DNA of 64,000 nucleotides from Fimbriimonas sp. (GCA_965249475.1 CBDFMD010000003.1:1868561-1932560), one strand, 5' to 3'; numbered from the stretch's first letter, positions 47,757-63,496 are shown. The notes: a model not told the origin generated them from the letters alone. Numbers and translations are program-made.

Positions 47757-47773
47757 GCAGGGGAGTGTATTGT
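47744..47773 (+). promoter_or_regulatory. Putative rightward early promoter (PR-like)
   Basis: TTGACA (47744-47749), 18-nt spacer, TATTGT (47768-47773). The Cro-like ATG is at 47786. Confidence 0.45.
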
Positions 47774-50405: not shown

Positions 50406-51551
50406 TTGAGCTACCGGATCATCCACGCGGTGGGGCGCTCGACGCTCACGGCGACCGAGGGGTTCGTCCTCATCATGCTCGCGAACTGCGCGGCGAAGGA
50501 GGGGGACGCGGTGCGCGTGAAGAACGACCGGCTCATGCAGCTGTGCAACCTCTCGGACAAGGGGGTGAGGAACGCGATCGCGGCGCTGAAGGCGCGGGGC
50601 GTCGTCGTGGAGGTGGCGCGGCACGCGAACAACGTGGCCGAGTACCGGATCGACGTCGAGGCGATCGCGCCCCCGCCTTCCGCCGACGCTCCGGCACGTG
50701 GTGCCGAAGAGGGCACTCCGGCACCACGTGCCGAACCACTCCGGCACGACGTACCGGGCACTCCGGCACCACGTGCCGAACCACTCCGGCACGACGTACC
50801 GGGCACTCCGGCACCACGTGCCGAACCACTCCGGCACGACGTACCGGGCACTCCGGCACCACGTGCCGAACCCTATAGAGAGGACTCTCCAGACCTTTAT
50901 CCAGACCTCTCTTCCAGACCCTTATCCAGAGAGAGAGGGGAGGAGGCGCGCGCGGGCGCCCCGCCGGGGGAAGGGGAAGCCGATCCCCACCCCGCTCCGG
51001 GGGACGACCCCGCGACGGCCCGGCTCCTCGCCGCCGTCCTCGCCGCCGTCCGGGAGGTGCCCGCCTGGCGCTCCCTCGGCGAGGCGGACCTGCCCGATCT
51101 CCCGTTCGTGCGCCGGCAGATCGGCCTGGCCACCGAGGCCGGCGCCGACGAGGCGCGGCTCCTCGACGCGATCGCCGGGTTCGGGGCGCACTACCGGCGG
51201 TGCGGCGGGCGCGGCTCCCCGATCGCCGACCTCGCGAGCTGGCTCACGAAGCGCCGCGCCGAGTGGGCGAGGGAGCGCGAGGCGATCGACCGGCGGGCGA
51301 GCAACGCCCGCCGCGACGAGATCTTCGAGGGCGCGGCCAGGCGCCGGAACGCGCCGGACCCGCCGGCGGGAGCCGAACGCCCCGACCGGCCCGAGCGCCC
51401 CGCGAGGCTCCTCCCCCGGCGCCAGGGGTTCGTCCTCGCCGGCGGGGAGATCCGCGAGAAGTTCGAGGGGGACGACCTTCCGGGCCGGGTGCACGGGACG
51501 ATGGAGGGGGCGCGGGAGGCGCTGAAGGCGCTCAAGGGCCTCGCCGCCTGA
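50406..51551 (+). CDS. Phage replication initiator-like protein (N-terminal winged-helix) containing an internal iteron array
   Basis: LTATEGFVLIMLANCAAKEGDAVRVKNDRLMQLCNLSDKGVRNAIAALKARGVVVEV is a wHTH. It is followed by GTPAPRAEPLRHDVP repeated 3.6 times. Position is between the recombination and late modules. Confidence 0.55.
   Translation: MSYRIIHAVGRSTLTATEGFVLIMLANCAAKEGDAVRVKNDRLMQLCNLSDKGVRNAIAALKARGVVVEVARHANNVAEYRIDVEAIAPPPSADAPARGAEEGTPAPRAEPLRHDVPGTPAPRAEPLRHDVPGTPAPRAEPLRHDVPGTPAPRAEPYREDSPDLYPDLSSRPLSRERGEEARAGAPPGEGEADPHPAPGDDPATARLLAAVLAAVREVPAWRSLGEADLPDLPFVRRQIGLATEAGADEARLLDAIAGFGAHYRRCGGRGSPIADLASWLTKRRAEWAREREAIDRRASNARRDEIFEGAARRRNAPDPPAGAERPDRPERPARLLPRRQGFVLAGGEIREKFEGDDLPGRVHGTMEGAREALKALKGLAA
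50688..50872. repeat. Iteron array: 3 identical 45-bp units plus a partial 4th and a degenerate leader copy
   Basis: Unit ggcactccggcaccacgtgccgaaccactccggcacgacgtaccg at 50712, 50757 and 50802, with a partial copy at 50847-50872. CTCCGGCAC occurs 8 times at 22/23-bp spacing. Each copy sits in a short inverted repeat (CGGCAC-CAC-GTGCCG). Confidence 0.9.
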
Positions 51552-51609: not shown

Positions 51610-52227
51610 GTGCCTACCGCGCCTCCGTCCACCGATCTCCCGCACCCCCTCTGGCTCGACATCGACCGCCAGCTCTGGGGGATCGCGCGGCGGTACCAGG
51701 GCGGCCGCGCCGAAGCCTACGCCGAGGATCTCCACGGCGAGCTCGTCCTCCACGCGCTCCTCACGATCCGGGAGCGCGGGCCGGACGTGCCGGCGAGCTG
51801 GATCGTGAGGCCGGCGCAGAACCGCCTCGTCTCGTGGCTCCGCAAGCAGGGGGTGCGGAACCTCGACCTCCCGCAGATCGCCGACCCGCGCCGCCGCTCG
51901 GCCCCGCCCCTCACCCGGCTCGACGCCTTCGACCTGGAGGCCGACTGGTACGAGGCGATGTCCTCGGACGTGACTTCCGAGGACGCCCGCCGCGGCGCCG
52001 AAGCGGCGGCGGTGCCGAGCCACGAGGAGCGCATCCTGGACCATCTCGCGGGAACGGCGGACGCGCGGCGCGCGGCGGCGGCGCTCGCAGGATCGCTCTC
52101 CGGGGCACTCCTGGAGGGCGGGGGCGTTCCCCTTCGCCGCGCGTCCCTCGGACGGTGGCGGCGCACGCTCGCGCGCACGGGTCCTCCGCGCGCGCCGCGC
52201 GAACGTCTAAATGTAGGGAGCGGATAG
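51610..52227 (+). CDS. Sigma-70 region-2-like protein (candidate phage late-gene sigma/regulator)
   Basis: GTG start. LWGIARRYQGGRAEAYAEDLHGELVLHALLTIRERGPDVPASWIVRPAQNRLVSWLRKQ follows the sigma70_r2 pattern (AEDL..E...... W......N....WLRK). The C-terminal part is only weakly r4-like. Confidence 0.4.
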   Translation: MPTAPPSTDLPHPLWLDIDRQLWGIARRYQGGRAEAYAEDLHGELVLHALLTIRERGPDVPASWIVRPAQNRLVSWLRKQGVRNLDLPQIADPRRRSAPPLTRLDAFDLEADWYEAMSSDVTSEDARRGAEAAAVPSHEERILDHLAGTADARRAAAALAGSLSGALLEGGGVPLRRASLGRWRRTLARTGPPRAPRERLNVGSG

Positions 52228-52530
52228 ATGGCGGCGGCGAGGGCGAAGACGGGCACGGGGACGAAGACCGGGGGGCGCGCGAAGGGCACCCCGAACAAGA
52301 GCACCGTGGCGAAGAGGGAGGGGATCGAGAGGCTCCTCGACTCGGGTTGCGACCCGTACCGGGCGATGTACGAGCTCGCCCAGCATCCCGACACGCCCCT
52401 CGACGACCGGATGTCGCTCCTCCGGACGCTCATGAAGTACTCGTACCGCGAGCTCCTCGCCGAGTCGGACCCCAACGCGGCAGGGGGCGGGTCGGAGACG
52501 AGCATCATCGCGATCGCGCTGAACAAGTAG
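52228..52530 (+). CDS. Small basic phage protein (possible DNA-binding / small-terminase-like)
   Basis: 100 aa. N-terminal GGRAKGTPNKST basic motif. Lies upstream of the packaging genes. Confidence 0.4.
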   Translation: MAAARAKTGTGTKTGGRAKGTPNKSTVAKREGIERLLDSGCDPYRAMYELAQHPDTPLDDRMSLLRTLMKYSYRELLAESDPNAAGGGSETSIIAIALNK

Positions 52531-52532
52531 GG

Positions 52533-52552
52533 GCGCGTCGTTTCCGGCGATG
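52533..52552 (+). promoter_or_regulatory. Conserved 20-nt late-region element, copy 1 (GCGCGTCGTTTCCGGCGATG)
   Basis: Exact 20-mer. Its terminal ATG is the start codon of ORF 52550..53083. Confidence 0.8.
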
Positions 52553-53083
52553 GCCGCGAGCGCCCCCACCCCCGAAGACACCGCCGACCTGAAGAAGCAG
52601 ATCGCCGACCTGAAGAGCGAGGTCGCCGCCAGTGGCAAGGATCTCGCCGCGGCGCGCGCCAAGATCCGCGACCTGGAGGGCGCGGCGATCGAGAACGGAC
52701 GCCTCGTCGGCGAGCAGGAGGCGCAGAACCGGGACCTCGCCGAGAAGGTGAAGTCCCTTGAGGGGAAGGCGGAGGAGGAGGGAGAGGCCCCGTTCCCCCT
52801 CGATCTCGTCCCCCAGGAGCCGGACAACCCGCTGAACCTCGTCCACGCGAGCGAGTCCGTCCCGATGGAGCACGGCGACTTCGGCTACCACCGCGCCGTC
52901 AGTTGCGCCCAGGACGCGGGCTACCAGATCGACGCGCTCCGGACCCGCGCCCTCGGCGCCGTGAACGCGGCGTTCGCGCTCGAGCGGCTCGGCCAGGTCC
53001 GCCAGACCGGAGAGCCCGAGTGGCGGGGCTTCCCGCCGTTCGACCCTTCGAGGTCGCTCCACGTCGCGGTGTGGATGGAGTAG
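52550..53083 (+). CDS. Hypothetical phage coiled-coil protein (177 aa)
   Basis: DLKKQIADLKSEVAASGKDLAAARAKIRDLEGAAIENGRLVGEQEAQNRDLAEKVKSLEGKAEEE. The start codon is embedded in the conserved element. Confidence 0.55.
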   Translation: MAASAPTPEDTADLKKQIADLKSEVAASGKDLAAARAKIRDLEGAAIENGRLVGEQEAQNRDLAEKVKSLEGKAEEEGEAPFPLDLVPQEPDNPLNLVHASESVPMEHGDFGYHRAVSCAQDAGYQIDALRTRALGAVNAAFALERLGQVRQTGEPEWRGFPPFDPSRSLHVAVWME

Positions 53084-54981
53084 TGCCCGACCGCCTCAAC
53101 ACCCTCCAGACCGGCCATCTCAGCGCGGCCTCGCCCTACGACGCCCAGCTCTCGGCGCTCGGGGACGGCTCCCACGAGCTCGCCGGGCTCCAGCTCCTCG
53201 GCGATCTTCCGGGGCACCTCGACCGCGTGAGCTGGCCCGACGTCCTCGCCGCGGGCGAGGCGCTCTTCGTCGCCTCGCGCGACGGAGTGGCGGGCACGTC
53301 GCAGTGGACCCCGTGGAGCTCCGCCTCGACGCCCGCGCAGACCGGCGCGGGAACGGCGTTCGCGATCGGGCCGCCCGATACGGCCTCGCTGACGGCGGGG
53401 CAGAGCACGAAGGCGCTGGCCCGCGCGGGCTACCTGCGGGGGCTGGTGCCGGCGGGGGCCGCGGTGTACGAGGTGCAGGCGCGCCTCGCCGAGGCGAACG
53501 CCCCGGGGCTCTCGCGCTCGGCCTCGGTCTCGACCCCCCTCGGCACCGGGCCGTCGCAGACGGGGACGCCGGGCGGGGCGACGACCCTCCCCTTCGCCTC
53601 GGGGCCGATGACCGACCGCGCGGGGATCGAGGCGGGCGGGCTCGCGGCGGCGCTGAACGTCTCCTACCCCGCGGGCGGGGCGCAACAGACGGCGCCGACG
53701 ATCGCGGACGGCGGGCCGGCCCTCCCCCAGGGGGCGACGGTCTCGACGGACTGGAGCCTCGCCATCGCCGACGACCTCCGCGGCTACCGCTCCGGCACCG
53801 ATCTCGCCGAGGTCGATGCGACGTCCTCCGTGCCGGTCGGCGACGGGACCGGCACGACCACGAACTTCCACGGCGGGGTGACCGGACAGACGGCCTGGGT
53901 TCAGGAGCGGACGTTCCGGATCGCCTCGAGCCGAGGGGCGACGCAAGGCGGGGTCCCGTTCTACGTCCAGGCGCGGCTCGCGGGCAAGTTCACGGTCGTG
54001 GTCACGTGGGTCGGGTCGGGGCCGCCCCCGGCGACGGTGACGCTCGCGATCCAGTCGCGCGCGGCCTCCTACTACGAGGATCCGGCGACGACCACGCGGG
54101 CCGGCGACAACGGCTACGGCGATCCGGACGGGGTGCTCTCCTCGCCGGACGGGCTCGTGCAGATGCCGACGTCGTTCGCCGGCCGCACCGGCGGGCGCAC
54201 CGTGGTCGTCCCCGTCGTCGGCGGCGTCGCGACGCTCGACGTGCCGGTGTCCTCGACGGGGCGCAAGACCCTCGCCTCGCCCGCGCAGGGCCAGATCTTC
54301 TCGACGTGGGCCGAGGTCGTCCTCGGCGCCTCGCCCATCCAGACCCAGGCGCCGCTCGCCTATTCGGGGACGGTGGAGATGCGGGCGCGGTACGGGACGG
54401 GCGGCACCGGCGCCGGGTCGGCCACCGTGCGGCGCACCGTCCTCCGGCGCCGGGCGGCGGTGAGGATCGACGTCCCCGCGGGCGAGCTCCTCAACCTCGC
54501 GCAGGGGTACGACGGCGCGCCGTGCCTCCGTTTCCTCGTCCCCGACGACGACCGGACGCTCGCCCTCTCGGCGAAGATCGAGGTCCCGCCGGGGGCCGAG
54601 CCCGCGCTCTGGTTCGTCGGGCTCGCCTCGGGGGCGCCGCTGACGAGGACTGGCCTCGCCGCCGTGGACGCGATCGGCTTCCTCGGCGGGGCGCTCGTCG
54701 GCGGGATCAAGGCCGTCGTGTCTCGGGGGGGTGCCGCGATCCTCGCCGACCTCGGGCCGACGCCCGCCGGGCCGGTCGCCCTCGGCCTTCGCGCGGTGAA
54801 GGGGCCGTCCCGGATCGAGTTCCTCTTCGGCGAGGCGCGGCTCCTCCACCCCACCCTCCTCGTGCCGACCCTCCCGCTCGCCCTCGCCCTCGGCGCCGTC
54901 GCCCCCGCGGCCTCCCCCGCGCGGCTCGATCTGCTCCGCCTCTTCGCGGGCCAGAACGCCGAAGCGCCGAACGTGCGCTGA
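53083..54981 (+). CDS. Large Gly/Ala/Thr-rich phage protein of unknown function (632 aa) immediately upstream of TerL
   Basis: In-frame GTG at 53083, overlapping the previous TAG by 1 nt. High GC3 coding signal. Hydrophobic C-terminal segments (LLVPTLPLALALGAVAPAA). Confidence 0.55.
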   Translation: MPDRLNTLQTGHLSAASPYDAQLSALGDGSHELAGLQLLGDLPGHLDRVSWPDVLAAGEALFVASRDGVAGTSQWTPWSSASTPAQTGAGTAFAIGPPDTASLTAGQSTKALARAGYLRGLVPAGAAVYEVQARLAEANAPGLSRSASVSTPLGTGPSQTGTPGGATTLPFASGPMTDRAGIEAGGLAAALNVSYPAGGAQQTAPTIADGGPALPQGATVSTDWSLAIADDLRGYRSGTDLAEVDATSSVPVGDGTGTTTNFHGGVTGQTAWVQERTFRIASSRGATQGGVPFYVQARLAGKFTVVVTWVGSGPPPATVTLAIQSRAASYYEDPATTTRAGDNGYGDPDGVLSSPDGLVQMPTSFAGRTGGRTVVVPVVGGVATLDVPVSSTGRKTLASPAQGQIFSTWAEVVLGASPIQTQAPLAYSGTVEMRARYGTGGTGAGSATVRRTVLRRRAAVRIDVPAGELLNLAQGYDGAPCLRFLVPDDDRTLALSAKIEVPPGAEPALWFVGLASGAPLTRTGLAAVDAIGFLGGALVGGIKAVVSRGGAAILADLGPTPAGPVALGLRAVKGPSRIEFLFGEARLLHPTLLVPTLPLALALGAVAPAASPARLDLLRLFAGQNAEAPNVR

Positions 54982-54991
54982 CGAGGCGTCC

Positions 54992-56497
54992 GTGCGGATC
55001 GTCGAGCGAGCCTTCTCCGAACACTGCGGCTTCCACCCGAAGCAGACGGCGGCGTACCTCGCGATGTACGAGCGCCCGAACGCCCGCGTCCTCGCCGGCG
55101 GCTCCGGCTTCGGGGGGAAGAGCCACCTGCTCCGGGGCGCGGCCGTCGGTCACTCGATGTGGCTCGCGCGGGAGGGGTTCTACCTTCCGAGCTACTTCTG
55201 CACGTCCACCTACGGCGTCCTGAAGGATCGGCACTACGGCAAGTTCATGCTGGAGTGGGGCGAGTGGGGGCAGATCCGCGAGAACGACAAGGAGTTCGGC
55301 GCGTGCTTCCGGTTCGACCACCCGAAGCTCCCCCCGATCCTCTTCCGCAACCTCGACGACCCGAACAAGCGGCGCGGCGCCGAAGGGGCGGCCGCGTTCG
55401 TGGACGAGATCACCGAGATGGTCCTCGCCGCGTGGGGCGGGATCGCGTACATGGTGCGCGCCCCCGGGCCTTCGCACCGCCCCATCCTCGCCGCGACGAA
55501 CCCGGACGGGATCGGCCACGCCTGGGTCAAGGCGCTGTGGCGCCCGCACCTGCCGCTCCGCTCGGAGACGGGCGAGTCGCGCCTCTCGCCCCACCCGAAC
55601 CCCCTCGTCCGCCCCGAGGACTACATCTACGTCCCCTTCCTCCCCAAGGACAACCCGCTCTACGACGAGGAGACGTTCCGGGGGCTCATCGCGCACCTGC
55701 CGCCCCACGTCCAGCGGGCGCGCCGGGACGGGAGCTGGAACGCGCCGGAAGGGGCGCGCTTCGAGAACCTCGCCGAGGAGACGCACGCGTTCTCCCTCGC
55801 CGAGCGGTTCCCGGCGGGGGTGCCGAGCGGGCTCCCGATCTACATGGGGATCGACTACGGCCTCCGCGCCCCCTACGCGGGGCTGTGGGCGTTCGTGGAC
55901 GGCGACGGCGACGTCTTCGTCTACCGCGAGGACTACCGCCCGGGGCTCACCGCCAAGCGCCAGGCCGAGCGCATCGCCGAGCTCACGAGCCCCACCGAGC
56001 GCGTCCGGGGGTGCTTCCTCGACCCGGCGATGTGGCAGACCTTCCCCGGCCACGAGGGGCCGACCGACAAGAGCGCGCACGCGCTCTACGAGGAGGTCCT
56101 CTGCGACCTCCCGAACTTCCCGCGCTCTCTCACGAAGGGCTACAACACGAGCCGCGCCCAGAACCTCATGACGCTCGACCGCTTCCTCCAACGCGACAAC
56201 GGAGAGCCGGACGTGTGGATCGAGGCGGGGTGCCAGAACCTCTGGCGCGAGCTCACGGGGGCGGTCTACCCGAAGGGGACGGTCGCCAAGGACGCGAGCG
56301 AGGACATCGACCCGTCGTGCCCGGACCACGCGATCACGGCGCTCTACTACTTCCTCGCCTCGCGCCACCGGGCGCCGCGCGTCGTTTCCGGCGATGCCCT
56401 CCCGACCCCGGAGGCGATGGCCGCGGCGCTCGCCAAGGAGCGCGAGAAGGCCTCGGCCCGCAACTGGAAGCGGCATCTGAAGAGCGAGAAGAGATGA
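54992..56497 (+). CDS. terL: Terminase large subunit
   Basis: GTG start, 501 aa. Walker A VLAGGSGFGGKS. Walker B/coupling AAAFVDEITE. C-terminal nuclease-like region (GIDYGLRAPYAGLW...DHAITALYYF). Confidence 0.85.
   Translation: MRIVERAFSEHCGFHPKQTAAYLAMYERPNARVLAGGSGFGGKSHLLRGAAVGHSMWLAREGFYLPSYFCTSTYGVLKDRHYGKFMLEWGEWGQIRENDKEFGACFRFDHPKLPPILFRNLDDPNKRRGAEGAAAFVDEITEMVLAAWGGIAYMVRAPGPSHRPILAATNPDGIGHAWVKALWRPHLPLRSETGESRLSPHPNPLVRPEDYIYVPFLPKDNPLYDEETFRGLIAHLPPHVQRARRDGSWNAPEGARFENLAEETHAFSLAERFPAGVPSGLPIYMGIDYGLRAPYAGLWAFVDGDGDVFVYREDYRPGLTAKRQAERIAELTSPTERVRGCFLDPAMWQTFPGHEGPTDKSAHALYEEVLCDLPNFPRSLTKGYNTSRAQNLMTLDRFLQRDNGEPDVWIEAGCQNLWRELTGAVYPKGTVAKDASEDIDPSCPDHAITALYYFLASRHRAPRVVSGDALPTPEAMAAALAKEREKASARNWKRHLKSEKR
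56377..56396 (+). promoter_or_regulatory. Conserved 20-nt late-region element, copy 2 (inside the terL 3' end)
   Basis: Exact 20-mer. Its ATG (56394) opens only a 28-codon out-of-frame ORF ending at 56480, 14 nt before the next gene. Confidence 0.8.
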
Positions 56498-56862
56498 GCC
56501 TGCGAAACGCCCGCGCCGAGAAGCGCCCCTTGTCGCTCCCGATCCTCGTCCTGGGGCTCGCGGCGACGGTGTACTCCCACTCCTACTCGAAGGCCCCCAT
56601 CCGGGGCTTCGGGAACCGGTCGCTCGTGGGATACGGGGTGACGCCGGGGGAGGACCGGTACACGATGGCGGCCGAGACGTTCGAGGTCGATGGGGAGATC
56701 GTCGAGGCGCTCCGGATCTCCATCGAGACGGGGGTCCACCGGCCCGAGACGGCGGGGTACGAGGAGATCGTCGTCCCCTTCGCGGCGCTCGAGACGTTCG
56801 GGGGGGGCGAGACCGAGGTCCTCGTGCCGCTCGCGCCCCTCTCCGCGGGCGAGGGCGGCTAG
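56494..56862 (+). CDS. Hypothetical phage protein with N-terminal TM helix (122 aa)
   Basis: ATG at 56494 in an ATGA overlap with the terL stop. PLSLPILVLGLAATVY is a TM helix. Confidence 0.5.
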   Translation: MSLRNARAEKRPLSLPILVLGLAATVYSHSYSKAPIRGFGNRSLVGYGVTPGEDRYTMAAETFEVDGEIVEALRISIETGVHRPETAGYEEIVVPFAALETFGGGETEVLVPLAPLSAGEGG

Positions 56863-56863
56863 G

Positions 56864-57124
56864 GTGCCAATCTACCCCTACTCGTGCCCGGGTTGCGGCG
56901 CGGCGCGGGAGATCCTCGTGCGCTCGCGCGAGGAGGCCGTCCCGTGCGCGTGCGGGGCACGGATGGCGCGGGGGTTCGGGGCGGCGGTCGGGCGCGTGGC
57001 CCCCTGGCTCCGCGACGAGAACTACGAGGGCAACGAGCGCCAGCGGGCGCATCTGCGGAGGCCGGACGTGCGGAAGGCGATCCGGGACGGGCGTCTCGCG
57101 CCGGCGGGGCGGGGAGAGGACTAG
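56864..57124 (+). CDS. Zinc-ribbon protein (FmdB-like CxxC...CxC)
   Basis: GTG at 56864. VPIYPYSCPGCGAAREILVRSREEAVPCACGARM... Confidence 0.55.
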   Translation: MPIYPYSCPGCGAAREILVRSREEAVPCACGARMARGFGAAVGRVAPWLRDENYEGNERQRAHLRRPDVRKAIRDGRLAPAGRGED

Positions 57125-58993
57125 GTGGCCCTCGCCGAGCGGGAGAGGCCGAGCGCCGGGATGACGGACGTCGAAGAGGCGGCCGAGGGCGGGGCGCCGG
57201 ACCGGGAGACGGGGCCGGGCGAGGGCGGGGCGCGATCGACGGAGCATCTGACGAGCGCGGCGCGCATCCGGGCGCGGGTCTCGACGGGGGCGGCGATCGA
57301 GCCGTGGCGCCGGAAAGTGAAGACGATGCGCGCGCTCGTGGCGGGCGACTGGTCGGCGATCGACGGCGGGGGAGCGGCGAAGGCCCCTCTCGCCGAGCGC
57401 GAGCGGAGCGTGGACAAGCGCGGCGCCGCCCACCTCGCGAAGCTCATGGTGAGCGACTTCGAGGAGGGGGCGAGCAACCCGCTCCTGGAGACGCTGAAGA
57501 CGCTCGTGATGCAGGTGAGCTACCGCTCGCCGGAGATCGAGTTCGAGGACGCGACCCCGATGGAGGCGGACATGAACGCGCTCTACCTCAAGCGCCGGTT
57601 CGGGCCGCGCCCGGGCGGATGCGACGCGCCCCACCACATGAAGCTCGCCCTCATCGATTACCTCGTCGCGGCGATGGGCTGGGTGTGGGCGGGCTCGGAC
57701 GGGGGGCGCCCCGACGTCCGGTACGTGGACGCGCTCGACGTGAGCTGGGACCTCGACGCGGCGCTCGTCACGGACATCCGCTGGGTCGCCGTCCACGTCG
57801 TCGGCACCGCCGGCGATTGGGCCGACCTCTTCGGCGAGGAGGCGTTCGCCGCCGAGATCGAGGACGCGCGGGACGAGAAGGATCCGGGGATCTGGCGCGA
57901 GACGCTCGTGCAGCTCGTCTGGTACTGGGACACGGACGGGGAGCTCGGGACGCACGCGGTCTTCCGGGCGGGCTCGGGGAACGGGGGCTACGAGCTCGCG
58001 GGAGAGCCGCTCGAGTGGACGGAGAACCCGCACTACCTGCGGACCGACGACGTCGAGCAACCGTTCCTGCCGCTCCTGCCGATCTACTTCCTCCAGCTTC
58101 CGGGGGTGCGCTTCCCGGTTTCGCCGGTGGAGATGATGATCGCGGCGCAGCTCGGGCTCCGGGAGGTCGAGGGGACGATCCGCTCGATCTCGAAGATCGC
58201 GCCGTGGATCGACGTCGAGGAGGGGGCGTACGAGGAGGACCAGCTCACGGAGCTCGAGGACGGGGAGCCGGGGGCGATCATCGAGCGGACGAAAGGGATG
58301 CCGCCGGCCCAGCACCTCATGGGGCCGGACATCCCGGCGAACCTCCTCCAGTGGCGCGACATCCTCAAGCAGGGGCTCACCGCGATGGGCGGGAGCAACC
58401 CCTACGCGAGCGGGAACAAGATCGACGGGATCGCGTTCGCCTCCGAGGTCTCGGCGATCGAGGGGGCGGCGGGGCTCACGGCGGCGACGGTGGCGAGCGA
58501 CCACGCCGGGCACTACCAGCGCGCGGCGCGGGCGACGCTCGCGAACGGGGCGAACTACGACGGCCTGCCTCTGGTGCTCGTGCTCGACGACACGCCGATG
58601 ACGTTCGGGACGGAGGACCCGATCGGGCCGTACCTGCGCCCCGACGCGCACGCGCAGGTGAGCGAGGACGCGCTCGTGTACGCGAGCAAGGACCAGCGCA
58701 TCGGGCGCGCGGCGGCGCTCTACGACCAGGCGCTCAAAGGCGCGCCGTTCCTCGGCCCCGTGCCGGTCCAGAAGGCGTTCAAGGGCGTCCTCGAGGCGAG
58801 CGGCGAGCGGGACGTGGCCTCGTGGTTCGCCTCGCCCGCCGCTCCTGACGGCGGCGCCGCGGGCGAGGCGGATCCGGTCCTCGGAACTTCGGCCCCCGGT
58901 GCTCCGGGCGGGGGCGCGGCTCCGGCGGGAGAGGGGGGTTCGCCCCTCTCGACGTCGGCGCAGATCCGGACGGAGCAGGAATCCAACGCATGA
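57125..58993 (+). CDS. Probable portal protein
   Basis: 622 aa. First large ORF after terL and before the scaffold/capsid genes. Assignment rests on synteny and size only. Confidence 0.55.
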   Translation: MALAERERPSAGMTDVEEAAEGGAPDRETGPGEGGARSTEHLTSAARIRARVSTGAAIEPWRRKVKTMRALVAGDWSAIDGGGAAKAPLAERERSVDKRGAAHLAKLMVSDFEEGASNPLLETLKTLVMQVSYRSPEIEFEDATPMEADMNALYLKRRFGPRPGGCDAPHHMKLALIDYLVAAMGWVWAGSDGGRPDVRYVDALDVSWDLDAALVTDIRWVAVHVVGTAGDWADLFGEEAFAAEIEDARDEKDPGIWRETLVQLVWYWDTDGELGTHAVFRAGSGNGGYELAGEPLEWTENPHYLRTDDVEQPFLPLLPIYFLQLPGVRFPVSPVEMMIAAQLGLREVEGTIRSISKIAPWIDVEEGAYEEDQLTELEDGEPGAIIERTKGMPPAQHLMGPDIPANLLQWRDILKQGLTAMGGSNPYASGNKIDGIAFASEVSAIEGAAGLTAATVASDHAGHYQRAARATLANGANYDGLPLVLVLDDTPMTFGTEDPIGPYLRPDAHAQVSEDALVYASKDQRIGRAAALYDQALKGAPFLGPVPVQKAFKGVLEASGERDVASWFASPAAPDGGAAGEADPVLGTSAPGAPGGGAAPAGEGGSPLSTSAQIRTEQESNA

Positions 58994-59538
58994 AGATCAT
59001 CGAACTCACCAGGCCCTTCGCCTCGCATCCCCGCGACGCGCCCCCCTCCCTCATCGTGATGCACGCGACCGCCGGGGCGAACGCCTCGGGCGCGATCGAG
59101 ACGCTCCGGGAGAAGGGGTACGGCTACCACTACATCGTGAAGGACGAGGACGAGGGGGACGGCACCGTGCTCAAGTGCGTGGCCACCGACCGGGTGTGCT
59201 ACCACGCGGGGAACTCCTACGGCCCCCGGGAGGAGGCGCGCGGCGTCTCGCGCGTCCAGGGGGAGGGCGCGCGGTTCGTCGCCGGATGCTCGGTGAACGG
59301 GTACTCGATCGGGATCTCGTTCGTGAACATGGACGACGGGCGGGACCCGTTCTCGCCGGCGCAGACGCAGGCGGCGCGCGCGCTCGTGGCGGCGCTCCGG
59401 GCGGCGATCCCGACGATCTCGGCGATCACGACCCACGCGATCGTGAGCCCGCGGCGCAAGGTGGACCCGCTGGGGTTCGACATCGACGCGCTGGGGAAGG
59501 CGACGCGCCTCCCCGTCTGGAGGCCGAGAGGTGGCTGA
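58990..59538 (+). CDS. N-acetylmuramoyl-L-alanine amidase (Amidase_2/PGRP, T7-lysozyme-like) endolysin
   Basis: LIVMHATAG...GYGYHYIV...CYHAGNS...NGYSIGISFVN...FSPAQTQAARALVAAL...ITTHAIVSPRRKVDP. Confidence 0.8.
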   Translation: MKIIELTRPFASHPRDAPPSLIVMHATAGANASGAIETLREKGYGYHYIVKDEDEGDGTVLKCVATDRVCYHAGNSYGPREEARGVSRVQGEGARFVAGCSVNGYSIGISFVNMDDGRDPFSPAQTQAARALVAALRAAIPTISAITTHAIVSPRRKVDPLGFDIDALGKATRLPVWRPRGG

Positions 59539-60022
59539 GGGGTTCGGCGGGATGGCGGGCGAGCGGTGGGGGAACGGCGGGCCGGTGAGGCCGGAGACCG
59601 CCCCCGTCGCCGCCGGCGCGCGGGTGGAGAACACGATCGTGAACGCCTGCCACTGCGAGGAGCGGGTGGCGGCGATCGAGCGGAGGCTGGGGGAGGAGGC
59701 GGCCGTGCGCGACGCGGACGAGAAGCGCGGGGCGAGGCTCGACACCTGGGCGCGCGTGATCGTGCCGCTCGCGCTCTCGCTCGCGATCGCGGCGACGGGG
59801 GCGGCGCTCGGCGCGGTGAACAAGAAGGTGGACGACGCCGCCGAGGCGGTCCGGACGATCAACCTCGGCGGGACCGACCGCGGCAAGGAGTGGGTCACCG
59901 ACTTCAAGGAGAAGGACGCCAAGCACGACCAGGCGATCGGGGCGCTCACGGGCGACGTCTCCGAGATCAAGAGCGACGTGAAGGTCATCCGCACCCTTCT
60001 CCAGGGGCAGGCCCCGCGATGA
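59531..60022 (+). CDS. Single-TM phage membrane protein (holin/antiholin or spanin candidate)
   Basis: TM helix WARVIVPLALSLAIAATGAALGAV with coiled-coil flanks. Directly downstream of the amidase. Start is at 59531 or 59552. Confidence 0.45.
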   Translation: MAEGFGGMAGERWGNGGPVRPETAPVAAGARVENTIVNACHCEERVAAIERRLGEEAAVRDADEKRGARLDTWARVIVPLALSLAIAATGAALGAVNKKVDDAAEAVRTINLGGTDRGKEWVTDFKEKDAKHDQAIGALTGDVSEIKSDVKVIRTLLQGQAPR

Positions 60023-60291
60023 TCACGACGTCCGCGAAGCTCGTGATCTGGTTCGTCTTCGGCCTCGGCGCGGCCTGCCTCTCGGTCGGCGCCTACCTCG
60101 CGATCGTCGGCAACGCGGCGTACAAGGATTTCCTCGCGATCGGCGTCCCGCCGGTCCTCACCGGCCTCTTCGGCGTCCTCGCCCGCACGCGGCCCGACCC
60201 GACGCTCACCGCCTCGACGACCGACTCCGCCGCGAAGGTGGACCCCGACCCGTCCCCCGGTCTCTCCGGGGGCGAAAAGCAAGACCCATGA
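60019..60291 (+). CDS. Two-TM small membrane protein (holin candidate)
   Basis: ATG at 60019 in an ATGA overlap. LVIWFVFGLGAACLSVGAYLAIVG and FLAIGVPPVLTGLFGVLA are the two TM helices. 90 aa. Confidence 0.5.
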   Translation: MITTSAKLVIWFVFGLGAACLSVGAYLAIVGNAAYKDFLAIGVPPVLTGLFGVLARTRPDPTLTASTTDSAAKVDPDPSPGLSGGEKQDP

Positions 60292-60674
60292 AAACCTCTC
60301 TCCTCGCCCTCGCCCTCGCCGCCGTCCAGGCCCCCGACGCGGGCGCCGCCGGCGGCGCCCCGCCCAAGCCCCGCGCCGAGGTCCCGCCCGGCCTCCGCAT
60401 CCAGATCGGGTACGAGCACTTCAAGGACGGGCGGCGCGACCTGCGGCTCACGCCGATCGACGAGGCGATCCCCGGGATCCCGCCCGCGGCGATGGATCTG
60501 CTCGAGGTCCTCATCGGGATGCTCGACCTCTCGGACGTCCAGCCGGGCGACGGGGAGTTCGACTTCGCGATCCAAGGGAAGATGGGCGATCTCGTCCGCT
60601 CGCGGATCCCGGCGATCGGGCGCTTCCTCCCCACGGACGGGGCGAACGGGTTCTTCCGGATCCGGCGCGCCTGA
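60288..60674 (+). CDS. Signal-peptide protein ending the lysis cassette (spanin-like candidate)
   Basis: ATGA overlap. MKTSLLALALAAVQAPDAGA is a signal peptide. 128 aa. Confidence 0.45.
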   Translation: MKTSLLALALAAVQAPDAGAAGGAPPKPRAEVPPGLRIQIGYEHFKDGRRDLRLTPIDEAIPGIPPAAMDLLEVLIGMLDLSDVQPGDGEFDFAIQGKMGDLVRSRIPAIGRFLPTDGANGFFRIRRA

Positions 60675-60709
60675 TCCCCTTTCGCCCCGAGTCCCTTCTC
60701 GCGGGGGCC

Positions 60710-60729
60710 GCGCGTCGTTTCCGGCGATG
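60710..60729 (+). promoter_or_regulatory. Conserved 20-nt late-region element, copy 3
   Basis: Exact 20-mer. Its ATG is the start of the scaffold-like gene (60727). Preceded by a C-run / pyrimidine loop / G-run hairpin (60684-60709). Confidence 0.8.
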
Positions 60730-61719
60730 GCCCCCGCGGATCAAGGCGAGAACGAGGCGACGATCGACCCGGCGAGCCCCGCCCCCGGCGAGGGCGGCGG
60801 AAGCGACCCCTATTCGCTCGGGCCGGACGGCGGATCGCTCGAGACGCCGCACGCGCGCCCCGGGCTCGCGCCGGCGACCGAAGAGGACGAAGACGACGAA
60901 GGGACCGAAGCCGGCGAGAGGGGCGCGGACGATCCCGAGGGCGCCGAGGACGATGCCGAGAAGGACGCCGAGAAGGAGACCGAGGAGGAAGACGAGGCCG
61001 AAGTCGTCTCGGACGATACCGAGGTGGATCTCGGGGGCGGCGAGAAGGCGACGATCGCCGAGCTGAAGGAGGCGCTCGCGGACCTGAAGGAGGCCGAGCC
61101 CTACGTGAGGCTCGGCGACGACTACCACGCGATCCTCACGACGTTCCGTTCGGGCGAGGCGGGGGCGCGCGAGATCCTCGAGACGTTCCTCCAGCAGGCC
61201 GAGGCGCAGTTCGGGCTCGGCCCGGAGGACTTCCTGCCGGAGGGGTTCGAGCAACGGGCGGACGACGGCGGGTACAAGGCCAAGTTCCAGGAGAGCCAGC
61301 GGCGCGCGACGGCGCTCGAGCGCGAGCTCGCCAAGCGGACGGCCGATTACGATTCGGCGCTGAAGGAGCTGGAGCCCCAGATCCTGAAGGCGCGGCGGGG
61401 CGAGGCGGCGGAGGCCGCTCGCCTGGAGATCCGGCGGACGCTGGGTCGCGAAGTGACGACGAAGGAGCTCCAACGGATGATGGAGGAGACGGGGTTGGAC
61501 GATCCGGTCAAAGCCTACAAGCTCGCTTCTTTCGACAAGGCGGCCGTGCCGCCCAAGACCAAGGCGCCGGCGATGCCCAAGGGCGCGCCGACCGGCAAGG
61601 TCTTCGACCCGAAAGACCCGAGCCTCACGGCCGACCGGATGGTCGAGCTCATGGAGCAGGGGTACGTGCCGAAGGGAGGGTTCGGCAAGGCGAGGGGCGC
61701 GGCCGCGAACGGCGCCTAG
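60727..61719 (+). CDS. Probable scaffolding protein
   Basis: 330 aa, very acidic N-terminus (EEDEDDEGTE...EKETEEEDEAE), helical/coiled-coil. Lies immediately upstream of the capsid gene. Confidence 0.55.
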   Translation: MAPADQGENEATIDPASPAPGEGGGSDPYSLGPDGGSLETPHARPGLAPATEEDEDDEGTEAGERGADDPEGAEDDAEKDAEKETEEEDEAEVVSDDTEVDLGGGEKATIAELKEALADLKEAEPYVRLGDDYHAILTTFRSGEAGAREILETFLQQAEAQFGLGPEDFLPEGFEQRADDGGYKAKFQESQRRATALERELAKRTADYDSALKELEPQILKARRGEAAEAARLEIRRTLGREVTTKELQRMMEETGLDDPVKAYKLASFDKAAVPPKTKAPAMPKGAPTGKVFDPKDPSLTADRMVELMEQGYVPKGGFGKARGAAANGA

Positions 61720-61728
61720 AGACGAGAG

Positions 61729-62742
61729 ATGTCCAACCCCAATTTCCAAGTATCCGACTACACCGCCTTCGCGATCGAGCAGCGGCTCCAGCGCGACTGG
61801 GAGATCCAGTACTGCAAGTCGAACCCGCTCCTCGCCTGCATCCGCGACGGCGACCTGAACTTCCGCAAGGGGTACACGGTCTCCGGCACGAAGGCGATCG
61901 TCCCCGTGATCTTCTCGGGCTCCGGGCTCGACGAGAACAACATCGGCATCGCGGACGGCAACCAGATCCCGGGCGCCTGGCCGACGTTCCCCGGCACGCA
62001 AGGGTTCTCGCAGTTCGAGTTCGCCTACGGGCACTTCGAGCGATCCATGACGATCCTCTCCACCGACCGCAAGCTCGGCGGCGGGACGTCCGGCGCGCGC
62101 GGCAACCTCATCGACGGCAAGACGACGCAGCTCATGGCGGACTGGAAGATCGCGTACGCGCAGATGATCTCCGGCGGCGCGGCCGACTCGCGCACCCGCC
62201 TCGTGGGGGTGGACTACGCGATCGCGACGGCGAACACCTACGGCGGCGTGGACCGGACGGCGGCGGGAGCGGCGTGGGCGCGCGGGAACGTCGCGGCGGC
62301 CCCCTCGCCGATCCTCGGTTTCCCGGCGATCAACGACCTCTTCGACACGCTGAGCTCGGAGACGGGCGAGGACGGGGCCGAGGACGCGCCCGACCTCCTC
62401 ATGCTCACCTACCCGGCGGGCGGCGTGAACCTCTACTCGAAGCTCCGCGAGCTCATCGCCCCGAACGAGCGGTTCATGCACGAGGACTTCCAGGCCAAGT
62501 ACGGGATCTCGCACTTCGACTACATGGGGATGAAGTGCGTGAAGGAGACGCGCGGCGCGGGCGGCCAGGTGAAGATGCTCAACACGAAGACGTGGGTCTG
62601 GGGCGGCCAGGAGATCCCCGAGCAGCTGGAGGAGATCCGGATCCCCGGATCCTCGGCGAAGGAGCGGCGCTTCGAGGCGTACAACTTCCTCGGTTGCAAG
62701 GCGCCCCGGAAGAACGGGCGCCGGACCGGCTTCACCGGCTAG
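61729..62742 (+). CDS. Probable major capsid protein
   Basis: 337 aa. Position after the scaffold. High expression-type codon bias. No motif-level proof. Confidence 0.55.
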   Translation: MSNPNFQVSDYTAFAIEQRLQRDWEIQYCKSNPLLACIRDGDLNFRKGYTVSGTKAIVPVIFSGSGLDENNIGIADGNQIPGAWPTFPGTQGFSQFEFAYGHFERSMTILSTDRKLGGGTSGARGNLIDGKTTQLMADWKIAYAQMISGGAADSRTRLVGVDYAIATANTYGGVDRTAAGAAWARGNVAAAPSPILGFPAINDLFDTLSSETGEDGAEDAPDLLMLTYPAGGVNLYSKLRELIAPNERFMHEDFQAKYGISHFDYMGMKCVKETRGAGGQVKMLNTKTWVWGGQEIPEQLEEIRIPGSSAKERRFEAYNFLGCKAPRKNGRRTGFTG

Positions 62743-62807
62743 AGCACCGGCCAGGTCTCCGCGCCCCCTGCGCGCGCCCCCGCTCTCCCTCTTCCGGGGG
62801 GACGGGG

Positions 62808-62827
62808 GCGCGTCGTTTCCGGCGATG
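62808..62827 (+). promoter_or_regulatory. Conserved 20-nt late-region element, copy 4
   Basis: Exact 20-mer. Its ATG is the start of ORF 62825..63496. Preceded by GCGCCCCC...GGGGGCGC and CCCCCG...CGGGGG alternative hairpins (62774-62811). Confidence 0.8.
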
Positions 62828-63496
62828 CTCGCGGCCCAGTTCCTCCAGATGGTGAAGAACCGTCTCGACTACGACGCGAGGACGCCTTACGGGAGCGACG
62901 AGGCGCTCCTCGGGCCGATCTCCCGCGCGCTCGCGGCGTTCTCGCGGGCGGGGCTCACGAGCTCGGGGCGGCGGACGGCGGCGGTGGTCGGGGGCGACGT
63001 GGACCTTCTGGCGGCGCGGGTGGCCTTGCCGCTGACCGTCTTCGCGGGAGGCGCGGCGCTGAGGGACCCGACCGGGCGGACCCGCCCGATCTCCCCGGTG
63101 GAGATCTCGCGCCTCGCCCCGGACGCCTCCTCGCCCCCGAAGTGGTGGGGGATGGTGGGGCCGCTGAGGCTGAAGGTGTGGCCCTCGGGCGCGCAGACGG
63201 TGGAGATCGAGGGGTTCGTGCTCCACCCGGCGCTGGGGGCGGCGGACCTCGCCGATCCCGCCTCGGACTCGGTGAGGCTGCCGGACGGCGACGCGCAGGA
63301 GGCGGCGGCGGACCTCGCGGCGGCGTACGCGATGCGCCCGCGCGCCTCGGGGGACCAACTGAGGAAGAGCCTCGATATGGAGACGGCCGCGCTGAGGACG
63401 GCGGCGGCTTACCGGGCGGCCGTGCTCGCGGGGAACCCCGCGGCGGCGGCGGTCGCGGCCGCGATGGCGCCCGACATGGGCGGGGGCTCGCGATGA
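62825..63496 (+). CDS. Hypothetical head-completion/adaptor-position protein (223 aa)
   Basis: First ORF after the capsid gene. No motif. Confidence 0.45.
   Translation: MLAAQFLQMVKNRLDYDARTPYGSDEALLGPISRALAAFSRAGLTSSGRRTAAVVGGDVDLLAARVALPLTVFAGGAALRDPTGRTRPISPVEISRLAPDASSPPKWWGMVGPLRLKVWPSGAQTVEIEGFVLHPALGAADLADPASDSVRLPDGDAQEAAADLAAAYAMRPRASGDQLRKSLDMETAALRTAAAYRAAVLAGNPAAAAVAAAMAPDMGGGSR

What the first reader, a model, noticed from the sequence alone, without database searches (positions are those of the whole stretch)
52533..62827. Exact 20-nt element GCGCGTCGTTTCCGGCGATG repeated four times, ending in gene start codons, across the prophage late region
**Observation.**
- The identical 20-mer occurs at 52533-52552, 56377-56396, 60710-60729 and 62808-62827, always on the + strand.
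- I found it nowhere else in the 64 kb.
- In three copies the terminal ATG is the start codon of a long ORF: the 177-aa coiled-coil protein, the scaffold-like protein, and the first post-capsid gene.
- The fourth copy lies inside the terL 3' end and opens a 28-codon out-of-frame ORF.
- Copies 3 and 4 also share an upstream C-run / pyrimidine-rich loop / G-run hairpin.
- The element has no purine-rich Shine-Dalgarno sequence.

**Interpretations.**
- Phage-specific late promoters producing leaderless mRNAs. TCGTTT sits 7-12 nt upstream of the A of the ATG, and a sigma-like gene lies 300 nt before copy 1.
- An RNA operator for a translational regulator, or an RNA-processing site.
- Module-junction sequences used for recombination.

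I do not recognise this element as a described phage regulatory motif.
Basis: seen in the sequence. Interest (0 to 1): 0.72.

Follow-up and report, generated by a model that had tools for sequence, protein, structure and literature searches.

The report
Prophage late promoters ending in start codons
A 20-base sequence repeated exactly four times in a prophage's structural-gene region is most likely a phage-specific promoter that starts transcription right at the gene's ATG, a mode of gene start the host genome also uses widely; this is a plausible variant of a known strategy, not yet proven.

Summary
GCGCGTCGTTTCCGGCGATG occurs exactly four times, all on the + strand. No other copy exists with up to 3 mismatches, and neither half has degenerate copies. 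About 0.02 matches are expected by chance.

- **Position.** Three copies end in true start codons. They fill the only three intergenic gaps longer than 10 nt in the tightly packed late operon. The fourth copy sits in a variable linker of the terminase large-subunit gene (terL), 100 nt upstream of the next gene.
- **New context.** The surrounding genome commonly uses leaderless gene starts: a TAnnnT -10 hexamer, 6 nt, then the start codon. The 20-mer has the same geometry (GCGCG-TCGTTT-CCGGCG-ATG) but a non-host hexamer.
- **Late region.** It has no host-type promoter.
- **Candidate factor.** An orphan protein with only a sigma region 2 match is encoded 306 nt upstream of copy 1.

Best reading (about 0.55): single-element late promoters, read by host RNA polymerase redirected by a phage factor, giving leaderless mRNAs. 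The closest known cases are the phiEco32 gp36 promoters and the leaderless late promoters of Thermus phages.

Rival readings are an RNA hairpin-AUG operator or processing site, a DNA operator, and a recombination junction.

No relative carries the motif, so covariation could not be tested. I rate it a new variant of a known kind, of moderate interest.

The parts
52533..52552 (+). Copy 1 of the 20-mer. Bases 1-17 fill all but the first 2 nt of the 19-nt gap after the stop of the 100-aa gene (52228-52530). Its ATG (52550) starts the 177-aa gene g4.
   Evidence: the g4 C-terminal domain is homologous to the gene upstream of terL in L021
56377..56396 (+). Copy 2, inside the terL coding sequence, where it encodes RVVSGDA in a variable linker. 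It lies 100 nt upstream of the g7 start (56494).
   Evidence: alignment A2: a gap and variable columns at this point, with a conserved tail after it
60710..60729 (+). Copy 3. Its ATG (60727) starts the scaffold-like gene. It is flanked by a perfect 10-bp inverted repeat, CGCGGGGGCC / GGCCCCCGCG.
62808..62827 (+). Copy 4. Its ATG (62825) starts the first gene after the capsid gene, which is adaptor-like.
   Evidence: M1 aligns to M1 of the L020 homologue
51610..52227 (+). Orphan sigma-like ORF of 205 aa. Only sigma-70 region 2 is detectable. It is the candidate specificity factor.
   Evidence: PF04542, E = 2e-5, 24.7 bits against a cut-off of 24; TIGR02937, E = 2.6e-4, below cut-off; no region 4; no homologue in 5.8 billion or 1.84 billion proteins; poor model
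56394..56480 (+). 28-codon out-of-frame ORF opened by the ATG of copy 2. Its stop lies 14 nt before the g7 ATG, so it could deliver ribosomes to g7 on a transcript that starts at copy 2 (inferred).
   Evidence: read from the sequence
62769..62812 (+). Strong GC-rich hairpin after the major capsid gene, terminator-like. Its 3' arm overlaps GCGCG of copy 4.
   Evidence: -48.5 kcal/mol, z = -2.4; relatives also carry a hairpin after the capsid gene
60684..60708 (+). Weak C-run/G-run hairpin upstream of copy 3.
   Evidence: no better than shuffles
52550..63496 (+). Late operon, tightly packed. Gene order: g4, g5, terL, g7, Zn-ribbon, portal-position gene, amidase, three small genes, scaffold, major capsid, adaptor-like gene. 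Every junction overlaps or has a gap of 10 nt or less, except the gaps of 52 and 82 nt that carry copies 3 and 4.

Best explanation
The 20-mer is a phage-specific, single-element late promoter that produces leaderless mRNAs.

**Proposed anatomy**, counting the A of ATG as +1:
- GCGCG, -17 to -13: an extended -10 region.
- TCGTTT, -12 to -7: a -10-like hexamer. It keeps the two T's of TAnnnT but lacks the A at -11 that the primary sigma needs.
- CCGGCG, -6 to -1: a discriminator.
- ATG, +1 to +3: both the transcript start and the start codon.

**Proposed mechanism**
- Host core RNA polymerase is redirected by a phage factor. The best candidate is the orphan sigma-region-2 protein encoded at 51610-52227, at the end of the early operon.
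- It initiates at four points along the late region: before g4/g5/terL, before g7-to-portal and the lysis genes, before scaffold and capsid, and before the adaptor and tail genes.
- Ribosomes load on the 5'-terminal AUG, so no Shine-Dalgarno sequence is needed.
- At copy 2 the 5' AUG opens a 28-codon ORF that ends 14 nt before g7. That ORF, or g7's own purine-rich stretch (gagaagag) just upstream of its ATG, gives g7 translation.

**Shown:** the copies, their positions, the matching geometry, the host's leaderless habit, and the lack of host-type promoters in the late region.
**Inferred:** the start site, the identity of the factor, and the timing.
For: 1. Four exact, co-oriented copies with sharp edges and no degenerate relatives.
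2. Three copies end in verified start codons with no Shine-Dalgarno sequence.
3. Of 15 consecutive gene junctions from 52227 to 63496, only three gaps exceed 10 nt (19, 52 and 82 nt). Each holds a copy.
4. The same genome uses leaderless architecture.
   - TAnnnT occurs only 79 times on both strands of the 64 kb.
   - Twelve of these lie 5-8 nt upstream of a candidate start.
   - The peak is at a 6-nt spacing: 6 cases against about 0.6 expected.
   - Examples: ggTAGACTcgccggGTG (38505), ggTAGACTcgcgcgGTG (40364), cgTAGACTcgggcgGTG (46497), and the prophage repressor gene at 47756.
   - The 20-mer, cgTCGTTTccggcgATG, has exactly this spacing and a GC-only discriminator.
5. There is no sigma-70-type or TAnnnT-plus-start promoter in 52-64 kb. 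Host-type promoters occur only at the immunity switch, 46.4 and 47.7 kb.
6. A protein with a sigma-70 region 2 match and no detectable region 4 is encoded 306 nt upstream of copy 1. No -35 element is conserved among the copies.
7. Copy 2 is kept exact inside a protein-coding gene, at a variable linker. This points to selection on the nucleotide sequence upstream of the next gene.
8. A strong hairpin follows the capsid gene and directly precedes copy 4, the usual terminator-then-promoter layout.
9. Precedents:
   - phiEco32 gp36 reads six single-element promoters (tAATGTAtA), with the start 6-8 bp downstream. It has no -35 element because it lacks region 4 (PMC8948821).
   - Thermus phage Lalka27a has 16 dense late promoters with a special -10 hexamer, the start 6 bp downstream, and mostly leaderless transcripts (bioRxiv 10.64898/2026.04.20.719267).
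Against: - There are no transcript data, so the start site is inferred from geometry alone.
- The sigma assignment is marginal: 24.7 bits against a cut-off of 24. The protein has no homologue anywhere and no usable structural model.
- Exact identity over all 20 positions in four copies is more than sigma-dependent promoters usually show. Host discriminators vary, so the invariance of CCGGCG and GCGCG is not explained by this model alone.
- The 20-mer can form a small RNA hairpin (CGUCG-UUUC-CGGCG, -5.5 kcal/mol) abutting the AUG. A leaderless transcript would not contain it.
- No related phage has the motif, so conservation or co-variation with the factor cannot be shown.
- The rest of the prophage, beyond 64 kb, was not available.
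Confidence: 0.55

Rival explanations
1. RNA-level start-associated element. The 20-mer is transcribed as part of long late transcripts. Its hairpin (CGUCG-UUUC-CGGCG), directly abutting AUG, would then be one of two things:
- an operator for a phage or host RNA-binding protein that switches translation of Shine-Dalgarno-less internal cistrons on or off;
- the recognition site of an endoribonuclease that cuts just 5' of AUG, converting a polycistronic RNA into leaderless mRNAs.
For: - The conserved block includes the start codon and abuts it with no spacer.
- There is no Shine-Dalgarno sequence.
- Exact 20-nt identity suits sequence-specific recognition by a protein or an RNA.
- A 5-bp stem with one G-U pair forms in RNA but would be mismatched in DNA.
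- In a host that translates 5'-terminal AUGs, processing to leaderless ends would be productive.
- Cluster K mycobacteriophage start-associated sequences (SAS) set a precedent for start-linked repeats of unknown function (PMC3203893; still untested in 2025, PMC12699233).
Against: - The hairpin is weak (-5.5 kcal/mol, z = -0.65) and appears in only some minimum-energy folds of the four contexts. There is no common larger structure.
- G1-G3 lie outside the stem yet are invariant.
- No trans-complementary RNA site exists in the window beyond chance.
- Rfam matched nothing here.
- No RNA-binding protein or nuclease candidate was identified among the prophage genes.
- Copy 2 would create an unproductive start inside terL.
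Confidence: 0.2
2. DNA operator for a phage DNA-binding protein. The site would be asymmetric and orientation-dependent, either blocking read-through transcription into late genes during lysogeny (stoperator-like) or recruiting an activator. The binder could be the small LexA-DNA-binding-domain protein at 50105-50386.
For: - The copies are asymmetric, co-oriented with transcription and sit in short intergenic spaces, as with Cluster A stoperators (PMC9283540).
- The prophage encodes a CI-like repressor (47037-47756) and a LexA-DBD-only protein.
- The imperfect dyad CGTCG-N4-CGGCG could seat a protein.
Against: - Stoperators share their sequence with the repressor's operators at the early promoters. 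Here the switch regions carry a different palindrome (TGGCA-N3-TGCCA / TTGGCA..TGTCAA).
- No copy of the 20-mer or its halves occurs in the switch regions.
- There are only four sites, all in the late region.
- An operator alone does not explain the fixed junction with ATG, the missing Shine-Dalgarno sequence, or the lack of any other promoter for the late genes.
Confidence: 0.12
3. Recombination or module-junction sequence, or a recently spread 20-nt cassette, with no regulatory role of its own.
For: - The copies lie at gene boundaries.
- The prophage encodes a RecT-family recombinase, a family generally held to act on short homologies; that property is from general knowledge and was not tested here.
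Against: - No other phage or genome carries the sequence at gene junctions. The 18, 20 and 1 exact hits in the three collections are single and unrelated, and those in the genome and metagenome collections are mostly coding.
- The relatives L020, L021 and L024 lack it.
- Direct repeats would delete essential genes.
- This reading does not explain the exact abutment to ATG or the missing Shine-Dalgarno sequence.
Confidence: 0.05

Closest known systems
phiEco32 gp36-dependent middle/late promoters (phiEco32-like podophages; PMC8948821)
   Same: - A phage-encoded sigma-like factor with no detectable region 4.
- A handful of single-element promoters without a -35 element, spread upstream of late genes.
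- A start site 6-8 bp downstream of the element, which here would fall on the A of ATG.
- Relatives of this prophage's capsid gene sit next to SU10-type portal and adaptor genes, i.e. the same broad phage group.
   Different: - The element is unrelated in sequence (tAATGTAtA against GCGCGTCGTTT...).
- It is invariant over 20 nt, not 9.
- It is fused to the start codon.
- The factor here is an orphan with no detectable homology to gp36.
- This phage is temperate: it has an integrase and a CI-like repressor.
Leaderless late promoters of Thermus phages (Lalka27a in bioRxiv 10.64898/2026.04.20.719267, which also reports this for YS40; P23-45 from my own knowledge)
   Same: - Dense late promoters defined by a special -10 hexamer.
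- The start site lies 6 bp downstream and coincides with the A or G of the start codon.
- A phage factor is proposed to alter polymerase specificity.
- The host also uses leaderless mRNAs.
   Different: - Those hexamers keep TAnnnT (TAGGGT); here the hexamer is TCGTTT, without the A at -11.
- Those promoters are degenerate outside the hexamer; here all 20 positions are fixed.
Start-associated sequences (SAS/ESAS) of Cluster K mycobacteriophages (PMC3203893)
   Same: - A short asymmetric repeat in one orientation, tied to start codons with an ATG bias.
- Absent from the host genome.
- Function never shown.
   Different: - SAS is a 13-mer containing the Shine-Dalgarno core AGGAG, placed 3-7 bp upstream of the start.
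- It has 11-19 degenerate copies, located in the non-structural arm.
- The element here has no Shine-Dalgarno sequence, includes the ATG, has four exact copies, and lies in the structural arm.
Stoperators of Cluster A mycobacteriophages (PMC9283540)
   Same: Asymmetric sites in short intergenic spaces, oriented with transcription.
   Different: - Stoperators are 13-mers with more than 20 sites, identical to the repressor's operators at early promoters.
- Here the switch-region operators are a different palindrome, and there are only four sites.
T7-type single-subunit RNA polymerase promoters (from my own knowledge)
   Same: About 20 bp, near-identical copies, reaching into the first transcribed bases and spread along the late genes.
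   Different: No single-subunit or other RNA polymerase gene was found in the visible 23 kb of the prophage.

Membership tests
Single-element promoters of a phage-encoded sigma (phiEco32 gp36 type) | The phage encodes a sigma-family protein | tested here: inconclusive
   PF04542 region 2 at E = 2e-5, 24.7 bits against a cut-off of 24. TIGR02937 falls below its cut-off. No homologues. The model has pLDDT 45.
Single-element promoters of a phage-encoded sigma (phiEco32 gp36 type) | One conserved element, with no conserved -35, upstream of middle or late genes | tested here: met
   The alignment of the four contexts shows nothing conserved upstream of -17. No region 4 is detectable in the factor.
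Single-element promoters of a phage-encoded sigma (phiEco32 gp36 type) | Transcription starts 6-8 bp downstream of the element and depends on the phage sigma | not testable with these tools
   Needs 5'-end mapping and in vitro transcription.
Leaderless promoter architecture (-10 hexamer, about 6 nt, start codon) | The start codon lies 6-7 nt after a -10 hexamer, with no Shine-Dalgarno sequence | tested here: met
   TCGTTT at -12 to -7, a 6-nt GC spacer, then ATG. The spacing is the same as the host peak at 6 nt. No Shine-Dalgarno sequence.
Leaderless promoter architecture (-10 hexamer, about 6 nt, start codon) | The hexamer matches TAnnnT (primary sigma) | tested here: not met
   TCGTTT has C in place of the A at -11. 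This is why a different specificity factor is inferred.
Leaderless promoter architecture (-10 hexamer, about 6 nt, start codon) | The mRNA 5' end is the A of AUG | not testable with these tools
   No transcript data.
Start-associated sequences (Cluster K SAS) | A 13-mer, GGGATAGGAGCCC, with a Shine-Dalgarno core, 3-7 bp upstream of the start | tested here: not met
   Different sequence, no AGGAG, and the element includes the ATG.
Stoperators (Cluster A) | Same sequence as the repressor operators at the early promoters | tested here: not met
   The switch regions at 46.4 and 47.7 kb carry TGGCA-N3-TGCCA-type palindromes and no 20-mer-like site.
Stoperators (Cluster A) | Asymmetric, co-oriented with transcription, in short intergenic spaces | tested here: met
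   All four are on the + strand; three of the four are intergenic.
T7-type single-subunit RNA polymerase promoters | The phage encodes its own RNA polymerase | tested here: not met
   No polymerase match among the ORFs of 41-64 kb. The 632-aa g5 has no Pfam, PHROG or PDB match and no polymerase-like features in its sequence. Genes beyond 64 kb were not seen.
Intrinsic terminators | A GC-rich hairpin directly followed by a U-tract at every copy | tested here: not met
   Only copy 4 has a strong hairpin abutting TCGTTTCC. Copies 1-3 do not.
Structured RNA family (Rfam) | A match to a curated covariance model | tested here: not met
   Only two tRNAs reach gathering score in the window.

The most novel reading that the evidence does not exclude
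The 20-mer acts in RNA. A sequence-specific factor recognises the hairpin-AUG module inside long late transcripts. It then either cleaves exactly 5' of AUG, manufacturing leaderless mRNAs from a polycistronic precursor, or licenses Shine-Dalgarno-independent internal initiation. That would be a programmed 'leaderless by processing' system in a phage. The evidence does not exclude it, because no 5'-end chemistry is known and the full 20-nt invariance exceeds what a sigma-type promoter needs.
Probability: 0.13. Interest if true: 0.8.

Novelty: new variant of a known kind. Interest (0 to 1): 0.45.

Why it matters
If confirmed, this would be a compact promoter and specificity-factor pair from a high-GC, leaderless-prone bacterium.
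- It would comprise a 17-nt DNA element plus a start codon, read by an orphan sigma-region-2 protein with no relative among 1.8 billion protein clusters.
- It would extend the known range of -10 recognition to a hexamer lacking the A at -11.
- It would show how a temperate phage builds late transcription units that need neither a -35 element nor a ribosome-binding site.
- It could serve as an orthogonal expression module for high-GC hosts.
- The element offers a clean test of whether start-codon-linked phage repeats, such as the still unexplained SAS of mycobacteriophages, act in transcription or in translation.

Tried and rejected
**Comparative genomics**
- The capsid protein has only six relatives, at 42-62% identity, and none in IMG/VR or among cultured phages.
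- The loci L020, L021 and L024 (52-60% GC) have no equivalent repeat and no motif before the orthologous genes.
- No alignment of variant copies could therefore be built, and covariation could not be tested.

**Exact 20-mer scans**
- There were 18 hits in GTDB genomes, 20 in JGI metagenomes and 1 in IMG/VR.
- All are single copies in unrelated contexts, and those in the genome and metagenome collections are mostly coding. The + strand reads (R)VVSGDA in the frame used in terL.
- I treat them as chance.
- A relaxed 19-mer scan of IMG/VR gave 26 loci of the same kind.

**L001, the one locus with a local cluster**
- Its relatives (L071-L088) carry degenerate GGCGAT-containing units around the promoter of a Dam methylase gene.
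- They share no protein with this prophage.
- I therefore did not use L001 as evidence.

**The sigma-like protein**
- No homologue was found by the word-index search or by full HMMER.
- There was no PDB sequence match.
- The single-sequence AlphaFold model was too poor for a fold search.

**Other mechanisms considered**
- Antisense or trans-pairing RNA: no site beyond chance.
- Phage RNA polymerase: none found; g5 has no Pfam, PHROG or PDB match and nothing polymerase-like in its sequence.
- Terminator reading of 'hairpin + TCGTTT': fits only copy 4.
- ECF-type bipartite promoter (GGAAC-N16/17-CGTT): there is no conserved -35, and the one GAAC (copy 1) is at the wrong spacing.

**Host identity**
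- It could not be determined.

Full report
**1. The observation**

GCGCGTCGTTTCCGGCGATG occurs exactly at 52533, 56377, 60710 and 62808, always on the + strand.
- No further match exists on either strand with up to 3 mismatches.
- Dinucleotide-preserving shuffles give 0.02 matches on average, and none of 100 reached four.
- The aligned contexts share nothing outside the 20 nt. Position -18 reads G/C/C/G and the base after ATG reads G/C/G/C.
- Neither half of the element has degenerate copies above chance.

This is an all-or-none, sharply bounded element in a 72% GC window.

**2. Setting**

tRNA-Arg(TCT) at 41244-41320 is followed by an integrase gene on the - strand. Next come:
- a block of - strand early genes;
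- a CI-like HTH/S24 repressor (47037-47756, - strand);
- a rightward operon with RecT, a LexA-DNA-binding-domain protein, and an O-like replication initiator that carries 45-bp iterons inside its gene;
- the sigma-like ORF.

So this is a temperate prophage.

I set the late-gene coordinates from a GC3 frame plot and by reading the junctions.

| Gene | Coordinates |
|---|---|
| g3 | 52228-52530 |
| g4 | 52550-53083 |
| g5 | 53083-54981 |
| terL | 54992-56497 |
| g7 | 56494-56862 |
| Zn-ribbon | 56864-57124 |
| portal-position gene | 57125-58993 |
| amidase | 58990-59538 |
| small gene | 59531-60022 |
| small gene | 60019-60291 |
| small gene | 60288-60674 |
| scaffold | 60727-61719 |
| major capsid | 61729-62742 |
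| adaptor-like gene | 62825-63496 |
| next gene | 63493 onwards |

- terL is 28-33% identical to actinophage terminases.
- The amidase matches PF01510.
- The capsid assignment rests on phrog_9953.
- Every junction overlaps or has a gap of 10 nt or less, with three exceptions of 19, 52 and 82 nt. Each exception holds a copy of the 20-mer that ends in the downstream start codon.

**3. The start codons and copy 2**

- M1 of the 62825 gene aligns with M1 of its homologue in L020.
- The scaffold N-terminus lies within six residues of its L020 homologue.
- g4 is supported by the frame plot and by a C-terminal domain shared with the gene upstream of terL in L021.
- Copy 2 lies inside terL, where it encodes RVVSGDA. 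This is a variable, gapped linker between the conserved nuclease core and a conserved C-terminal tail (alignment A2).
- Keeping 20 exact bases there points to selection on the nucleotide sequence, 100 nt upstream of g7.
- The ATG of copy 2 is in the non-coding frame and opens a 28-codon ORF that stops 14 nt before the g7 ATG. By itself that is not statistically remarkable in GC-rich DNA.

**4. New context: a leaderless-prone genome**

TAnnnT is rare here, with 79 sites on both strands.
- Twelve of them lie 5-8 nt upstream of a candidate start of a GC3-supported ORF.
- The distribution peaks sharply at a 6-nt spacing: 6 cases against about 0.6 expected per offset, with 0-3 at other offsets.
- TAGACT-N6-GTG recurs at 38505, 40364 and 46497.
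- The prophage repressor gene starts 7 nt after TACACT, which has a TTGGCA -35 element 17 nt upstream. This resembles lambda cI transcribed from P_RM, a comparison from my own knowledge.

Set beside these, the 20-mer has the same layout:

| Site | Sequence |
|---|---|
| host 38505 | ggTAGACT-cgccgg-GTG |
| host 40364 | ggTAGACT-cgcgcg-GTG |
| 20-mer | cgTCGTTT-ccggcg-ATG |

- The hexamer keeps T at -12 and T at -7 but has C where the primary sigma needs the A at -11.
- In 52-64 kb no sigma-70-type promoter is found.
- None of the three TAnnnT sites in that stretch is placed before a gene start.
- The late genes therefore have no recognisable host promoter, but they do have four copies of an element with promoter-plus-leaderless-start geometry.

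**5. The candidate factor**

The 205-aa ORF at 51610-52227 ends 306 nt before copy 1.
- It matches Pfam Sigma70_r2 just above the gathering score (E = 2e-5, 24.7 bits against 24).
- It matches the ECF superfamily model below its cut-off.
- Its sequence carries the region 2 pattern...AEDLHGELVLHALL...W-x7-NRLVSWLRKQG.
- No region 4 is detectable, even at E = 10.
- It has no homologue among 5.8 billion word-indexed proteins or 1.84 billion cluster representatives.
- There is no PDB sequence match, and the single-sequence model is unusable.

A factor with region 2 only fits a promoter that has no conserved -35 element. That is the argument made for phiEco32 gp36 (PMC8948821). The link between this protein and the 20-mer is nonetheless inferred only.

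**6. RNA-level features**

- The 20-mer alone can form CGUCG-UUUC-CGGCG (-5.5 kcal/mol, z = -0.65).
- In context, the four copies fold differently and only copy 3 departs from shuffles.
- Copy 3 is bracketed by a perfect 10-bp inverted repeat that would bury the AUG in read-through RNA. A transcript starting at the A would lack the upstream arm.
- Copy 4 is preceded by a strong hairpin after the capsid gene (-48.5 kcal/mol, z = -2.4). Its 3' arm includes GCGCG of the motif.
- Relatives also have a hairpin after the capsid gene, so this is probably the usual terminator.
- The hairpin upstream of copy 3 is not significant.
- No trans-complementary site stands out, and Rfam finds nothing here.

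**7. Relatives and other occurrences**

- The capsid protein has six relatives, at 42-62% identity.
- Their contigs (L020, L021, L024) show the same gene order, with SU10-type portal and adaptor Pfam hits. They have no sigma-like gene and no comparable repeat.
- Exact matches elsewhere number 18 in genomes, 20 in metagenomes and 1 in viral contigs. All are single, and those in genomes and metagenomes are unrelated and mostly coding.
- The one exception is L001, where the 20-mer sits in a tandem cluster upstream of a Dam methylase gene. Its relatives have degenerate GGCGAT-containing units around a leaderless-type Dam promoter. They share no protein with this prophage.
- I treat L001 as an unexplained coincidence and not as evidence.

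It is also private to this prophage as far as the data go.

**8. Weighing the explanations**

*Promoter with leaderless start.* This model explains the orientation, the placement in the only intergenic gaps, the fixed fusion to ATG, the missing Shine-Dalgarno sequence, the intragenic copy upstream of g7, the absence of other late promoters, the absence of a -35 element, and the neighbouring sigma-like gene. It does not by itself explain why all 20 positions are invariant.

*RNA-operator or processing model.* This explains the invariance and the abutting AUG. It lacks a consistent structure and a candidate factor.

*Stoperator-like operator.* This fails its defining test, because the repressor's switch-region operators are a different palindrome.

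*Recombination junction.* This finds no support in any related or unrelated phage.

I put the promoter model at about 0.55, the RNA model at 0.2, a DNA operator at 0.12, and a junction or cassette at 0.05.

**9. Comparison and verdict**

- The element works most like the phiEco32 gp36 single-element promoters and like the dense, leaderless late promoters of Thermus phages.
- It is not a member of the SAS, stoperator or T7-promoter classes, since at least one defining feature of each was tested and not met.
- It is best called a new variant of a known kind.
- It is of moderate interest and directly testable by 5'-end mapping after induction.

Noticed in passing
window 1-47800 (e.g. 1140, 8735, 12694, 15315, 24302, 38505, 40364, 46497, 47756): The genome makes wide use of leaderless-type gene starts: TAnnnT (often TAGACT), 5-7 nt, then ATG or GTG. 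Six cases fall at exactly 6 nt against about 0.6 expected. The prophage CI-like repressor gene is one of them. The -35 element is often absent.
   Followed up: yes
window 50666-50935: About 4.6 tandem copies of a 45-bp repeat (three exact) lie in frame inside the O-like replication-initiator gene (50406-51551). They are followed by a lower-GC stretch with repeated TCCAGACC-like words. This is probably the phage replication origin placed inside the initiator gene, as in lambda.
   Followed up: partly
L001 3590-3660 (= L071 9879-9952); L077 9855-9995: An unrelated 45-kb viral contig carries the exact 20-mer plus two degenerate tandem copies (spacing 26 and 28 nt) upstream of a Dam methylase gene, with the ATG in frame with that gene. 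Relatives have similar GGCGAT(A/T/G)..GGATCC units around a TTGACA-N17-GATAGT-N6-ATG promoter. No protein is shared with the window.
   Followed up: partly
window 41244-42516: tRNA-Arg(TCT) is directly followed by a tyrosine-integrase gene on the - strand. This is the likely left attachment site of the prophage. The right end lies beyond the window.
   Followed up: partly
window 46400-46440 and 47735-47795: The two divergent switch regions carry sigma-70-type promoters (TTGACA-N17/18) and operator-like palindromes (TGGCACCATGCCA; TTGGCATCATGTCAA) that are unrelated to the 20-mer.
   Followed up: partly
window 50105-50386: A 93-aa protein consists only of a LexA-type winged-helix DNA-binding domain (PF01726, E = 4e-14). 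It is encoded just upstream of the replication initiator and may be a regulator. Its target is unknown.
   Followed up: no
window 56864-57124; L024 6246-6656; L021 6154-6444: A small Zn-ribbon (PF09723-like, MPxY/FxYxC) gene is conserved between terL and the portal gene across this phage group. Its function is unknown.
   Followed up: no
L024 3756-3777 and 14016-14037: A related metagenomic phage contig has an exact 22-nt direct repeat (CCCGGCCCAGACGGACACGGCA). Both copies lie inside coding regions, 10 kb apart.
   Followed up: no
window 11175-12671: A host gene matches the Pup-ligase PafA and depupylase Dop models (E about 1e-82) but scores well below both equivalog cut-offs. It is a divergent member in a host of undetermined phylum.
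   Followed up: no
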